A DNA stretch of 64,000 bases from NCBI RefSeq assembly GCF_009914755.1, contig NC_060928.1. One strand, written 5' to 3'. This document shows, one piece after another, positions 8,503 through 32,102 of the stretch (positions within the stretch are counted from its first letter, which is position 1; each line of letters opens with the position of its first letter). The stretch is from the human T2T-CHM13v2.0 reference genome, Homo sapiens. The position numbers and the translations under genes were made by a program. The notes under the pieces were generated by a model. That model saw only the letters and a program-made list of their open reading frames with translations. It was not told the DNA's origin and made no database searches.

Positions 8503-10519
8503 CACAGGTACAGGATATACTCCATAGAGAGGAAATGCTCTCGCTTAGGATGAGACAAAATAACAAACTGAATGACCTTGAACAGAACTTGGTTATCTTT
8601 GGGTCTTGGTTTTCTTTGAGTATGAGGATTTGAAATCAATTACTTCTGGGGTCTCTTCCAGCACTTCCTGATTTTATGACAGTTATTCCAATTGCAAAAG
8701 AAACTAACTACCCATTTGGCCCTCCCATTCCACAAAAACAAAACACACAGTATCATTTCAAGAGTCAGAGTCAGATTCTTGTTTTGAATTTAAAGTGCTA
8801 CATGACTGCTAAGGTTAAAACTCCTTTCAAAAATCAAAAAGGTTGAATCATCAGAGGATAAAACCCATCACCACTGCAAACCAAAGTGGATTTTCAACCT
8901 AGTAGAAAATGTGAATTGACAAAGCATGCAAAAATTAGCTCAAGTAGCTGCAACCTTCTTCTATAAGTATCCTGGTAAATGCTTAGGAGTTTAAGTGTGT
9001 ATTGTTTATGCTGCAAGAAGCATATGAGGTTGAAAGCATGGATGTGTTATGCCCAGAAACTGGAATCTTAATTCAATAGGGAAAGAGTCTTCTTCAAGTA
9101 AAAATAACACAACTAAAAAATTACAAAGTCTTAATACGAACTGTTTAATTGTTATAACAAGATTTGAGAGGCAGGGGTAGGTAAGTAAGTCACCAACTGG
9201 CGATAAGTCACCAACTGTTAATATGTGTCTGCAAGTTTCTTGTTTTTCACAATCACTAGATTTACATACAATTATAGGTTATGGTTCTCCATGTACACAT
9301 ACAGTGAAAGACATTTTCCAAATACCTTTTGATGTAGAATGGAACCTGAGACAAAAAAATCACTTAAGAAATCAAATCTCATATAATGGAAATACTTTAA
9401 CCACAGCATTCACACATTTGACTGTGGATTCCAAATGCTTATCTAAACAGAGGCAACGCAATTAAACTGCCTTCACTCAAAATGGTGTCAGAAGGCAACT
9501 ACCCTATTTACTAGCCACTGATAAGTTATGACAACACTATTTCATAGCCTGTCACTATATTTCTTTTAACCCCCCAGCAGTAGGATTTAGGATTTCCTCA
9601 ACACTAAGGGCTTATCTCAAATGCTTTAGTGCACGAACAGTAAAAAATCAGAGTTGCAATGCCACATTGAGAAACTAGATAATGACTTGGAAATAAAAGT
9701 GGGGGAAGTGATGAACTGCCACTACCTGTTTTTCTAAGTTTTCTATTTTCTAATACAGAGCAAAACTTTAAATGCTAACGACAAAAATAAATCTAACAGG
9801 CCTAGAAATTCTGAAGGTAACCCAGTGACAATAGAAAACTTTTAGATCACTATTAAGAGGTCTTTATATTGTTCATAAACAATAGGAAAATAAGACTGAT
9901 ACTGTTTATAATTACTAACTAGATAAAATTTGGCAAAAGACATCTAATATACTTTTTACAATGAAAATGATTTCTAAAAATGATTCCCTTGATCTCATAC
10001 CTATAGAAAAACTATCAGTGATTACTTTTTAGTATGAAAATAATAAGCTAGTTACACAATTTAAATATTATTTTCTGACTTTTCTCTCTTCCTTATGAGA
10101 CTGGGGAAAAAAGATGTTAGAGGAGAAAAATAACTGTTACATGCCAAATAGTTCAAAATCTTCCCCTGGAAACTGAAACAGGATCCTTAGAAAGTACATA
10201 ATGTCCTGGAGTTTCCCTTGTAGACAAATACTTTGGTCATTTATTTGTAATCAGATACTGATTTTAGCAGATTACAGCACTTATAAACATTGTCACAGAC
10301 CGCACAATGTCCATTCATAAATAAAGGAGGTTTATTCATGAAAAGGTTGTGATTCTTCTGAAAGCATCCAATACAACCTTTCTGGACATTTCCCTTTCAG
10401 TATTACCTGGCATGTAATCAGGAAAGGGAAACATTCAGGTAAGTTACAACCTCCAGTCATATTCACAGCAATATGCAATATGGACATTTACAGGGGGAAT
10501 CCCTTTGCAGGTGACTTCA

Positions 10520-28550: not shown

Positions 28551-28712
28551 TACAATTGGTGCTTTATCCCCTGATTATAAACATAAACAACTTTGAAAAA
28601 GATTGGCAATTTCTATTTTAAATGCTCGTCAGGAGTTTTTCAAAAGTACCTCTGGGTTTCTAATATAAGTTGTCACGGATAATAAATCAAAGTGGGACAA
28701 AGAAACATCTTA

Positions 28713-28943
<231 letters not shown>

Positions 28944-31658
28944 TCACAGATAGAGGAACAAGGCCTAGCTAGGTCAGTTCACAGAGCATAGGGCAGGGCA
29001 GGATGGCCTCCAACTGCATCTTGGATTGTTTACTACCTTGATTTGGTACATCAACACCTAACCACATCTGTAAGACAAGAGGGTTTCAAAGCTACAGAGT
29101 ACCTGATTATTTTAACTAGATCTAAAAGTAGGCATCAAAACAGCTATTCTGAAGGCCATCAGGATACTAAAAAGCTCAACTTATTTAAAAAAACCAGTGC
29201 TGATAGCTCTACCAATAACCAGAATAACGGTGTCAATTGCCTTTTAGCTAACTGTAATTTTTCAAAAGGGCATCCACTAAATCTACTGAATGGCTGTGAA
29301 AGTTAGGAAGCTATGCTTGCCCACTGCAGAGCTAACAACAACTTTGAAACCAGTCTACTGCCATGTTTCTATCAGAATTTTTTCCCTAATACTGTGGCTA
29401 TTACCAACTGGTGGGTATCACTATTAGCACCGGTGAGCAGAAGCATATGTAAACATAAAAATATCAAGAATTCTTGGGTTTGGATGATAGCAGTAGTGGT
29501 GGAAGGTTAAACCGCCTTTGAATTAAGAAAATTCAAAAAGGCTGGGATATTCAGCCTAGTGTTTCAGCATTTTAACAAAAGGATTAGAAAATAAAGTCCC
29601 AAATTTAAAAAAGAAAAAAAACAAACTTATTTGAATCAAAACCTCAATATAAAAGCAAAGTCCAATATTTCAAAAGTTGACAATTAGTCTGAAACAATCA
29701 TATCAAGGGTCATCAAGATATGTAACTACAGTTATTTGTTTAGAGCCTCAATATTAATTCACATAAAACTTTAAATTGTTACAAAGCATGTACTACATTT
29801 TTTGAAATACAACTTTCCTTAATTCAGTTTAGCAATTCCATAGTCATAAAAGCAGTATGAAAATAAAAATACTTAACAGCTTGGGACTTTTTCAACACAT
29901 TTTAAAAGCTCTTAAAACCTTGTCAATGAAAAAATTCATAAATTATCGGTTCGGATAGAAGATAATGGGAATAATCAACAACAAGATAAAATACAGTATC
30001 ATATTACTCTTTCCCATACAGTTTCCCCTTTAAAAAGATGCCAAAATAGCCAAATAGTGACAACAAAACATGATCATAATAAATATTAAAACTCTTGCTT
30101 AATTTAATTGAAGCAAGGTAATTCATAAAAGCACACAAACTTCTCACAGCTGTGAATTTTAATGTGAACTAGCCACTAGAGTTAAGTGGGAATAAATAAG
30201 TAGTGCTCTCAAAGGCCTCTAGATTTGCACTGTTAGTATCAGGACCTCAAAACTTCAAAAACTATTTTAATGTCAAACAAAGCATTACAAGCTCAGCAAA
30301 CTATTTTTTATTCCCTGACTTCTTACTTGCCTCTTATTTCAACACTTTTCCTATAAATGGACCATTTAAAAACAGTCCATTTACATTGCTGCACATAAAT
30401 GCTCATTCTCCTGACAAACTAAAGGTTTTTATTTGTGATAAATAAAAATAAGTTTTTTTTAATTACAAATAAAACTGAGATGTAGTTGGAAGATTACAAC
30501 TACATCACAACAACAAACTTCTTAAAGAGCTAATATTCTAAACTCAAACAACAGTAATCATGTAAGTATATCTGATAAGAGAACCTAGAGAAATAAAAAC
30601 TAGGCAGATAGACAAGTAAGTACACAATCCATTAGTTCTTGCCCCACACTTTCTCTAAAAACTAAAATCTTGGGAGAAGTACAACTGGGAGAATCTATAA
30701 AACAACATATAAGAAAGGCAGACAACAACCTACCACCACCTCCGCAAATGAAGCTACAATTTAATTAAAGTGACTCAATACTGCCCTGCCCATCTGCTCT
30801 GAGTCTGATCAGTCATAACTCTGCAAGAAAACATTTTAGCTACTTCTTAAATAAAAAATTCACACCATTAGAATATACCATACGTCTAAACTAAGCCATA
30901 ATTTTACATTTAAATTTTTTTCAATTTATCCTTTAATTCCACAGAATATTTTGAAATATTTGCAGCATTAAGTTCAATAAACCACTCAGCAATAGGGAGT
31001 CAGTTCTCTCCCGTGCTAAAACTAGTAGCAGAGAATATTTTAATCGTCAGTAAGAACTTATTTTCTATTTTTAGCTGTAAGAATAGCTATTCATTTGTTT
31101 CTTAACAATATTTCTTCTCCTTTAGGGAAAATCTAATTTCCAAGTTACTATTCATTTGTGGATTACATTTTATTGTTACTAAAAACAGCATTATTTCCTT
31201 AGCTTAATGGTCCAATTTTACAAAATTAGCGATTTTATATATTAGGTATGTTTCTTTTACCAAGTTTTTCTACCATTGTAAAAGAATACCATTATCAGAT
31301 TAGATTTTAAGCCTAAAATTATACATTACTATTTCTATTTACTTGATATGAAGTTTGAAATTCATGTTTGTTCGGGTGCCATTGGAGTACATATATAGAA
31401 AAGGCTCAACTTAATGTATAGCTTTCAGTTTGTCACAGGCACACTTAATAGAGCTAAGTACTAGAGCAAAGTTCTTCCTGTACTTGCAGTAAAAAACAAA
31501 AAACAAAAAAACCACAAAGATAGCAGTGATGGACCTTTAACCAAAGAATTCAGTTACAACTGTGCTCAAACTTACTGCAATTTTTATTAGCACTCAAGAG
31601 AGCCAATGCTTTACTTATCTTTTGTGCACAATGACTTACTTTACTTTTGTAAGCACTA

Positions 31659-32102
<444 letters not shown>

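What the first reader, a model, noticed from the sequence alone, without database searches (positions are those of the whole stretch)
28970..30810. Long-range RNA duplex in DHX15 intron 10 that encloses a candidate poison exon and reaches the exon 11 branch point
Seen: two GC-rich words 1.8 kb apart in an AT-rich intron with no recognisable repeat are reverse complements. They are 30781-30801 (ctgccctgccc-atc-tgctctg) and 28982-29001 (cagagca-ta-gggcagggcag), giving 11+7 Watson-Crick pairs around a small internal loop. In the pre-mRNA the pairing can extend by UCAG (30805-30808) onto CUGA (28974-28977) of a branch-point consensus CUGAC. The duplex encloses the candidate PTC exon at 29037-29067. 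Established: splicing-factor genes often self-regulate by AS-NMD, long-range intronic pairing can control poison exons, and DHX15 with G-patch cofactors such as SUGP1 acts in U2/branch-site quality control. Inference: this may be a structure-based feedback switch in which helicase activity decides between productive and unproductive splicing of its own transcript. I do not know whether it has been described.
Basis: partly seen in the sequence, partly recalled or inferred. Interest (0 to 1): 0.85.

Follow-up and report, generated by a model that had tools for sequence, protein, structure and literature searches.

The report
Nested long-range RNA duplexes, DHX15 intron 10
Two pairs of complementary words in one intron of the human splicing helicase gene DHX15 could fold the pre-mRNA so that a small stop-codon-carrying exon is tucked away, but whether cells use this fold is untested.

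Summary
30781-30801 and 28982-29001 are reverse complements (11+7 Watson-Crick pairs, 3x2 loop), -36.6 kcal/mol, up to -42.6 with the flanks. Shuffles do not reproduce it: 0 of 300 dinucleotide, 0 of 651 local-composition and 0 of 20,000 arm-only shuffles. No repeat origin was detected. All 18 core pairs form in whole-intron folding, p 0.97-1.0.

New here is a second, nested duplex, 30745-30714 with 29519-29490: 26 bp, -39.5 kcal/mol, stronger on the sense strand. Together they close off 488 nt holding the 31-nt exon. That exon, or its acceptor alone, gives an in-frame UGA 14 nt after exon 10.

Caveats:
- Equally strong pairs are common in GC-richer human DNA.
- A local hairpin competes for the upstream arm.
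- CUGAC lies 86 nt from exon 11, and CUCAU lies at 44 nt.
- Conservation and experimental contacts could not be checked.
- No paper found links DHX15 to self-regulation.

Best reading (0.4): an exon loop-out structure that suppresses unproductive splice sites, a known kind. The helicase feedback switch stays speculative (about 0.05).

The parts
30781..30812 (-). Outer duplex, upstream arm (core 30781-30801; extension 30805-30808 and 30810-30812)
   Evidence: 25 bp in all (24 WC + 1 GU), -42.6 kcal/mol. Core pairs p 0.97-1.0.
28969..29001 (-). Outer duplex, downstream arm (core 28982-29001). It starts 35 nt after the candidate donor and overlaps CUGAC.
   Evidence: Forcing 28982-29001 single-stranded costs 19.3 kcal/mol in the intron MFE.
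30714..30745 (-). Inner duplex, upstream arm, 35 nt downstream (in the RNA) of the outer upstream arm
   Evidence: 26 bp (22 WC + 4 GU) in four segments, -39.5 kcal/mol. Sense -38.3 against antisense -27.7. 25 of 26 pairs are in the intron MFE.
29490..29519 (-). Inner duplex, downstream arm
   Evidence: helix segments with p > 0.9. Forcing it single-stranded costs 19.1 kcal/mol.
29037..29067 (-). Candidate 31-nt PTC (poison) exon inside the 488-nt segment 29002-29489 closed off by the two duplexes
   Evidence: in-frame UGA 14 nt after exon 10. AG at 29068-29069 and GU at 29035-29036. The boundary at 29067 matches the RefSeq alternative exon 28766-29067 (hub table).
29028..29040 (-). Candidate donor CAAG|GUAGUAAAC of the 31-nt exon, not in the RefSeq table
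   Evidence: It can also pair weakly with 30613-30631 (-20.5 kcal/mol; pair I7).
28973..28977 (-). CUGAC branch-point consensus, adenosine at 28974, 86 nt from exon 11
   Evidence: AG dinucleotides lie 4 and 8 nt downstream of it, then none until the exon 11 acceptor.
28945..28963 (-). Pyrimidine tract CCUUGUUCCUCUAUCUGUG just downstream of CUGAC
   Evidence: Read from the sequence printed.
28931..28935 (-). Alternative branch-point consensus CUCAU, adenosine at 28932, 44 nt from exon 11, outside the duplex
30604..30616 (-). Local competitor: pairs with 30785-30797 of the outer upstream arm (13 bp, 3 of them GU)
   Evidence: in a 601-nt local fold the arm is almost fully paired with it. Opening cost is 17.0 kcal/mol. 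Sense -24.1 against antisense -12.4.
28766..28888 (-). DHX15 exon 11
   Evidence: Hub table. The frame was checked.
31823..32014 (-). DHX15 exon 10
   Evidence: Hub table. The frame was checked.

Best explanation
DHX15 intron 10 carries two nested long-range RNA duplexes on the sense strand. The outer one is 30812-30781 with 29001-28969. The inner one is 30745-30714 with 29519-29490. If both form, they make a three-way junction. The junction closes off a 488-nt segment that holds an unproductive acceptor (29067) and a 31-nt stop-codon exon. It also shortens the path from the exon 10 donor to the exon 11 acceptor from 2.9 kb to about 1.1 kb.

The most likely effect is an exon loop-out: the enclosed unproductive splice sites are suppressed and productive exon 10-exon 11 splicing is favoured.

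Shown: the complementarity, its excess over shuffles, the predicted folding, and the stop codon.

Inferred: that the fold forms in cells, that it affects splicing, and in which direction.
For: - Complementarity and energy.
- Excess over chance: 0 of 300, 0 of 651 and 0 of 20,000 shuffles.
- The second duplex was found only after the locus had been picked on the first. It is matched as best pair by 3 of 269 block shuffles and as second-best pair by 0 of 269.
- Both duplexes are in the intron MFE (18 of 18 and 25 of 26 pairs). Each is worth about 19 kcal/mol against the best alternative. Core pair probabilities are 0.97-1.0.
- The inner duplex depends on 4 GU pairs with no A.C oppositions. It is 10.6 kcal/mol stronger on the DHX15 sense strand.
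- No sign of a repeat or inverted duplication.
- The stop codon follows from the frame, and the acceptor at 29067 is annotated in RefSeq (hub table).
- Loop-out suppression of intervening exons and cryptic sites is the general behaviour reported for such pairs (PMC8052449, abstract and passages). A structure-controlled poison exon is reported for BRD2 (PMC10789245, abstract in the listing).
Against: - No conservation, covariation, crosslinking or splicing data could be reached.
- Energy alone is weak evidence. With 39-nt windows, 111 non-repeat clusters reach -35.7 in 264 kb of real DNA, 102 of them in spans above 0.40 G+C. The comparison set of AT-rich DNA is only about 33 kb.
- The outer duplex is all Watson-Crick and slightly stronger on the antisense strand (-45.7 against -42.2). 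It carries no strand information.
- The upstream arm is transcribed about 1.8 kb before its partner. Meanwhile it can sit in a local 13-bp helix that costs 17 kcal/mol to open. The folding used here is equilibrium folding, without proteins or kinetics.
- The donor of the 31-nt cassette is not annotated.
- DHX15 is absent from the lists of 296 RNA bridges and 1,135 exon loop-outs of PMC8052449. Those lists also required eCLIP and knock-down support.
Confidence: 0.4

Rival explanations
1. Coincidental complementarity between GC-rich patches. It may or may not pair, and it has no consequence for splicing and no history of selection.
For: - Strong long-range pairs are pervasive in real human DNA: 111 non-repeat clusters at -35.7 or below in 264 kb, and 17 at -42.6 or below.
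- The 11-mer GGGCAGGGCAG occurs 8,662 times in the genome. By my own hand estimate from base composition, that is roughly 25 times the expected number.
- The locus was picked out by a reader who was looking for such words.
- PMC8052449 reports false-discovery estimates of 10% to over 50% even for conserved pairs (passage).
Against: - Shuffles that keep local composition do not reach it: 0 of 651, and 1 of 269 with wider windows.
- It is the only such pair in AT-rich context in 264 kb.
- An unselected second duplex sits nested beside it (second-best 0 of 269).
Confidence: 0.3
2. The fold forms and helps splicing in a general way, by compacting a 2.9-kb intron and bringing the exon 10 donor near the exon 11 acceptor. 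It has no specific role in controlling the stop-codon exon.
For: The geometry comes: the junction leaves about 1.0 kb upstream and about 80 nt downstream. Association of such pairs with intron splicing is reported in PMC8052449 (abstract).
Against: Nothing separates this from the loop-out reading in silico. The downstream arm sits 35 nt after the candidate donor and the enclosed segment holds the annotated acceptor. That placement fits a specific role at least as well.
Confidence: 0.12
3. Relic of an old inverted duplication, or of two copies of an ancient mobile element in opposite orientation. The complementarity would then be historical, not selected.
For: The two patches are collinear in the inverted alignment, as decayed inverted repeats would be. 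The outer arms begin and end CAG...CTG. That this resembles the termini of some DNA transposons is my recollection and was not tested.
Against: - Complementarity stops after about 24 nt.
- The 35-nt spacer between the upstream arms has no complement in the 488-nt spacer (score 13 against shuffle mean 15.6).
- At DNA level the inner pair is not significant (score 21 against null 21.4 +/- 2.4). Its strength comes from sense-strand GU pairs.
- The arms have no other copy in 264 kb or in the own genome.
- I saw no target-site duplication beside the arms (read by eye).
Confidence: 0.07
4. One reading: the duplex masks the exon 11 branch site or its U2 anchoring region, and DHX15 (with a G-patch partner) resolves it. 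Helicase level would then set the ratio of productive to NMD isoforms, giving a negative feedback.
For: - The downstream arm ends 4 nt upstream of CUGAC, which is followed by the best pyrimidine tract of the region. The extension pairs CUGA with p 0.64-0.75.
- DHX15 acts with SUGP1 in splicing fidelity (PMC9894173, title and abstract).
- The upstream arm has alternative partners, as a switch would need.
Against: - No report of DHX15 autoregulation or a DHX15 poison exon in six searches.
- No DHX15 in the main text of the autoregulation survey PMC6547761.
- CUGAC is 86 nt from the acceptor, and CUCAU at 44 nt stays free. The extension is absent from the MFE with exons.
- The logic is ambiguous: the same duplex would hide the poison exon (productive) and hinder the exon 11 branch site (unproductive).
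- That DHX15 unwinds ordinary intronic duplexes is not established. This last point is from my own knowledge.
Confidence: 0.05

Closest known systems
Pairs of conserved complementary regions (PCCRs) and exon loop-outs in human introns (Kalmykova et al. 2021, PMC8052449; abstract, passages and three small supplementary files seen)
   Same: Intronic, same gene, under 10 kb apart, non-repeat. The energy is in their strongest class (below -30 kcal/mol). The arms flank an alternative exon and a cryptic acceptor, which is the arrangement they report as suppressive.
   Different: Conservation of the arms is unknown. DHX15 is not in their RNA-bridge or loop-out lists. Their full catalogue was too large to read. 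Their pipeline excluded alternative exons (passage), so the downstream arm may have been masked if 28766-29067 was annotated. That last point is my inference.
BRD2 exon 3b / BRD3: RNA structure controlling unproductive splicing (PMC10789245; abstract in a search listing only)
   Same: Complementary intronic regions are proposed to control inclusion of a poison exon in a regulatory gene.
   Different: I saw only the start of that abstract. [quoted passage not shown] I did not read the paper, so I cannot say what was tested there. Here there is only sequence and folding, and the exon is 31 nt with an unannotated donor.
ATE1 long-range pairings (rows of Table 1 of PMC8052449, seen: -33.2 and -35.9 kcal/mol)
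   Same: Comparable energies.
   Different: Those rows are listed for ATE1 exons 7a and 7b, which are coding exons. Here the competing partners are predictions, and the choice is productive against NMD-prone.
Autoregulatory splicing coupled to NMD in RNA-binding proteins (PMC6547761; abstract, and a main-text term search)
   Same: A splicing-machinery gene with an event that introduces a premature stop.
   Different: No evidence that DHX15 binds or acts on its own pre-mRNA. DHX15 is not mentioned in that paper's main text. Its supplements could not be opened.
Inverted Alu pairs in introns
   Same: They are the other strong intramolecular duplexes of this window. All 46 clusters stronger than this pair read as Alu sequence by eye (my recognition, from memory). 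The repeat filter leaves this pair as the only non-repeat pair at -34 or below inside the window.
   Different: Those are hundreds of bases long and repeat-derived. This pair is short, single-copy and bounded.

Membership tests
PCCR (PrePH definition, PMC8052449) | At least 10 nt complementary, dG of -15 kcal/mol or below, helix seed of at least 5 | tested here: met
   Outer -36.6 to -42.6 and inner -39.5 kcal/mol. The energy model is ViennaRNA duplexfold, not PrePH.
PCCR (PrePH definition, PMC8052449) | Both arms in the same gene, no more than 10,000 nt apart, outside repeats | tested here: met
   Spacings are 1.8 kb and 1.2 kb within intron 10. Single copy in the own genome and in 264 kb. 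No RepeatMasker run was possible.
PCCR (PrePH definition, PMC8052449) | Both arms lie in evolutionarily conserved intronic regions | not testable with these tools
   No vertebrate genomes or conservation tracks were available. The full PCCR tables were too large to read.
Exon loop-out | Duplex arms flank an alternative exon | tested here: met
   29037-29067 and the annotated acceptor at 29067 lie between the arms of the outer duplex. They lie outside the loop of the inner duplex.
Exon loop-out | Exon inclusion changes when pairing is disrupted and returns when it is restored | not testable with these tools
   This needs a minigene or antisense experiment.
Poison exon / AS-NMD event | The event introduces a premature stop upstream of later exon junctions | tested here: met
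   UGA 14 nt after exon 10, both for the cassette and for the 29067 acceptor alone. Three exon junctions follow.
Poison exon / AS-NMD event | The isoform exists and rises when NMD is blocked | tested here: inconclusive
   The acceptor at 29067 is in a RefSeq alternative transcript (hub table). The 31-nt cassette is not. No expression data were reachable.
Autoregulatory feedback by the encoded protein | The protein acts on its own pre-mRNA and shifts the productive/unproductive ratio | not testable with these tools
   No report in six searches.
Branch-point occlusion | The paired nucleotides include the branch point that is actually used | tested here: inconclusive
   CUGAC at -86 is partly paired (p 0.64-0.75; 0 of 4 in the MFE). 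CUCAU at -44 is a free alternative. No lariat data.
Known RNA family (Rfam 15) | Match to a curated covariance model | tested here: not met
   0 matches at E of 1 or below over 28700-32100, both strands.

The most novel reading that the evidence does not exclude
The two duplexes form a cage around a poison exon that is remodelled by DHX15 itself. The outer helix abuts the distal branch site of exon 11. More helicase would open the cage, expose the 29067 acceptor and the 31-nt exon, and send the transcript to NMD. This would be a structure-based negative feedback of a spliceosomal helicase on its own gene.
Probability: 0.05. Interest if true: 0.9.

Novelty: new member of a known kind. Interest (0 to 1): 0.45.

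Why it matters
DHX15 is an essential spliceosome and ribosome-biogenesis helicase, and how its level is set is not described in the papers I could search. This is a defined, short and mutable pair of helices around an annotated unproductive acceptor. That gives a concrete handle to test whether DHX15 expression is tuned by unproductive splicing. It also gives a clean model of exon loop-out in an intron free of repeats. If the arms turn out not to be conserved, the case is a useful caution: strong, statistically unusual complementarity arises in human introns without function.

Tried and rejected
- Repeat or duplication origin. Flank alignment, spacer and wider inverted alignment, own-genome searches of both arms and of the whole intron, and copy counts in 264 kb all gave nothing beyond the arms.
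- The repeat finder did not list the arm pair among its 25 longest of 103 inverted pairs. The tool extends seeds without gaps, and the arms are interrupted by a 3x2 loop.
- Known RNA family: none in Rfam.
- A larger real-DNA null. 200 kb was fetched. AT-rich comparison DNA therefore amounts to only about 33 kb.
- PCCR catalogue. Only the RNA-bridge list, the loop-out list and the file description were readable. There is no DHX15 in them, and none of the coordinate prefixes I tried (guessed from memory for GRCh37) matched. The full lists were too large.
- Autoregulation survey PMC6547761. No DHX15 in the main text. Its supplements could not be opened because paper reading closed, and it was not used again. 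PMC11632617 (cryptic poison exons), PMC10789245 and PMC10573301 were therefore seen only as listings. Their text and supplements may bear on this locus.
- Splice-site scoring with MaxEnt-type models and branch-point predictors was not available. Sites are judged by consensus only.
- Structure or complex prediction of proteins was not relevant and not used.
Full report
**1. What is in the sequence**

DHX15 lies on the minus strand. In the pre-mRNA the upstream arm reads 30801->30781 and the downstream arm 29001->28982.

duplexfold gives -36.6 kcal/mol for the core and -40.6 with the UCAG/CUGA extension. With three more pairs it reaches -42.6: 25 bp in all, 24 Watson-Crick and 1 GU.

**2. Is it more than chance?**

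Within the intron the pair is the best of 477 evaluated seed pairs (-38.8 in 31-nt windows). The next independent pair scores -28.1.

| Null model | Result |
|---|---|
| Dinucleotide shuffles of the intron | best mean -24.6, sd 2.2, min -32.7; 0 of 300 reach -38.8 |
| Shuffles within 20-nt blocks (GC-rich patches stay in place) | 0 of 651, min -34.5 |
| The two arms shuffled alone | 0 of 20,000 reach -36.6; 3 reach -30 |
| 20-nt block shuffles, 39-nt windows | 1 of 269 reaches the real -42.8 |

A moment-fitted Gumbel tail gives about 1.3e-4 per intron, which is only a rough extrapolation.

Real DNA tells a more sober story. In 264 kb (the window plus 200 kb of flank), after removing repeat-like pairs and one CpG island, 11 pairs reach -38 on either strand. 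This one is the only pair in an AT-rich span (0.34 G+C; the others 0.41-0.56) and the only one inside the window.

With 39-nt windows, 111 non-repeat clusters reach -35.7: 102 in spans above 0.40 G+C, 7 at 0.36-0.40 and 2 at 0.36 or below. Both of the last two belong to this intron.

So such energies are ordinary in GC-normal human DNA and unusual only against this intron's composition.

**3. Not a recognisable repeat**

- Complementarity ends after about 24 nt.
- The 200-nt surroundings of each arm and the whole intron match only themselves in the own genome. That search skips very common words.
- Each arm has one copy in 264 kb.
- The 11-mer GGGCAGGGCAG is frequent genome-wide, at 8,662 places. 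The 7 + N3 + 11 pattern occurs only 4 times, this locus included.
- Rfam gives nothing.

**4.

Folding the intron shows another long-range helix: 30745-30714 with 29519-29490. It has 26 bp (22 Watson-Crick + 4 GU) in four segments, at -39.5 kcal/mol. It is nested inside the first.

The two upstream arms are 35 nt apart. The two downstream arms are 488 nt apart, and that 488-nt piece (29002-29489) holds the candidate exon.

Because the locus was chosen on the outer pair alone, this is close to an independent test. In 269 block shuffles the best pair reaches the inner pair's -35.7 three times, and the second-best pair never does.

The inner helix is 10.6 kcal/mol stronger on the DHX15 sense strand (-38.3 against -27.7). 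All four of its transition-type oppositions are GU and none is A.C. At DNA level it is not a significant inverted match (score 21 against 21.4 +/- 2.4), and the spacers are not complementary. This speaks against a decayed inverted duplication and mildly for pairing at the RNA level. The outer helix carries no such strand signal (sense -42.2, antisense -45.7).

**5. Predicted folding**

- In the MFE of exon 10-intron-exon 11 (3,249 nt, -787.6 kcal/mol), all 18 core pairs form and none of the 4 extension pairs does.
- In the partition function of the intron alone, core pairs have p 0.97-1.0 and the extension 0.64-0.75. The only pairs more than 500 nt apart with p > 0.9 (40 pairs) belong to these two helices.
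- Forcing either downstream arm single-stranded costs 19.3 or 19.1 kcal/mol.

Against easy formation: the upstream arm is made about 1.8 kb before its partner. In a 601-nt local fold it is held by a 13-bp helix with 30604-30616 (3 GU pairs), with an opening cost of 17.0 kcal/mol. The downstream arm costs 7.3 kcal/mol to open. These are equilibrium calculations, without proteins or transcription kinetics.

**6. The enclosed exon and the branch site**

29037-29067 is bounded by AG (29068-29069, after a CCCUCUUGUCUUAC tract) and by AAG|GUAGUA. Inserting it, or using its acceptor alone as in the RefSeq alternative exon 28766-29067 (hub table), gives UGA 14 nt after exon 10, with three exon junctions downstream. 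That makes the product an expected NMD substrate by the usual 50-nt rule, which I state from established knowledge. The cassette donor is not annotated.

CUGAC has its adenosine at 28974, 86 nt from exon 11. It is followed by AGs at +4 and +8, by the best pyrimidine tract of the region (28963-28945), and by no further AG. CUCAU, with its adenosine at 28932, lies 44 nt from the exon and outside the duplex. Either could serve, and nothing here decides between them.

**7. How it most likely works**

If both helices form, the unproductive acceptor and the 31-nt exon sit in a closed side domain. The exon 10 donor is then brought within about 1.1 kb of the exon 11 acceptor. That is the loop-out arrangement. 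[quoted passage not shown] BRD2 exon 3b is a published case of a structure-controlled poison exon (PMC10789245, abstract in the listing).

I put 0.4 on this reading. The rivals and their odds are:

| Reading | Odds |
|---|---|
| Exon loop-out that suppresses the unproductive sites | 0.40 |
| Coincidence without effect | 0.30 |
| General intron compaction | 0.12 |
| Old inverted repeat | 0.07 |

The feedback idea has an internal tension: the same helix would hide the poison exon and hinder the distal branch site. It also has no support in print. Searches for DHX15 with each of the following found no paper about DHX15's own transcript, judged by titles and abstracts:
- 'poison exon' (14 papers)
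- 'unproductive splicing' (7)
- 'long-range RNA' (2)
- 'autoregulat' + 'nonsense-mediated' (16)
- 'NMD' + 'cassette exon' + 'premature termination codon' (13)
- 'cryptic poison exons' (0)

**8. Limits**

No vertebrate genomes, conservation tracks, crosslinking data or expression data were reachable. Paper reading closed, so several relevant papers and all further supplements were not read. The full PCCR catalogue, where this pair might already be listed, was too large to open.

**9. Verdict**

If real, this is a new member of a known kind, with moderate interest.

Noticed in passing
window 30714-30745 and 29490-29519 (minus strand): A second long-range duplex nested inside the reported one. 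It has 26 bp and -39.5 kcal/mol, is stronger on the sense strand, and has p > 0.9. With the first duplex it closes off the 488 nt that hold the stop-codon exon.
   Followed up: yes
window 30613-30631 and 29022-29040 (minus strand): A 19-nt stretch complementary to the candidate donor of the 31-nt exon (-20.5 kcal/mol; pair I7). It would cross the inner helix. Its alignment score is near the chance level (23 against 21.4 +/- 2.4).
   Followed up: partly
window 30604-30616 with 30785-30797 (minus strand): A local 13-bp helix (3 GU pairs, sense-specific) holds the outer upstream arm before its distant partner is transcribed. It is a possible kinetic trap or the alternative state of a switch.
   Followed up: partly
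window 28766-28880: The other RefSeq alternative exon uses an acceptor 8 nt inside exon 11. This shifts the frame and gives a stop 38 nt after exon 10. It is a second unproductive acceptor choice at the same exon.
   Followed up: partly
flank, own genome C4:24,451,500-24,455,500 (loci L019-L020): A CpG-island-like stretch produces dozens of very strong chance duplexes. By the hub's coordinates it lies at the 5' end of PPARGC1A. It was excluded from the real-DNA null.
   Followed up: no
flank, own genome C4:24,429,077-24,429,393 (locus L016): The strongest non-Alu pair of the 264 kb: -68 kcal/mol, arms about 310 nt apart, two copies in the sample. It is probably a hairpin-forming repeat. It was not identified.
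   Followed up: no
window 28889-31822: The whole 2.9-kb intron matches only itself in the own genome, while other parts of the window are dense with Alu-type pairs. The lack of repeats may hint at constraint. This was not tested.
   Followed up: no
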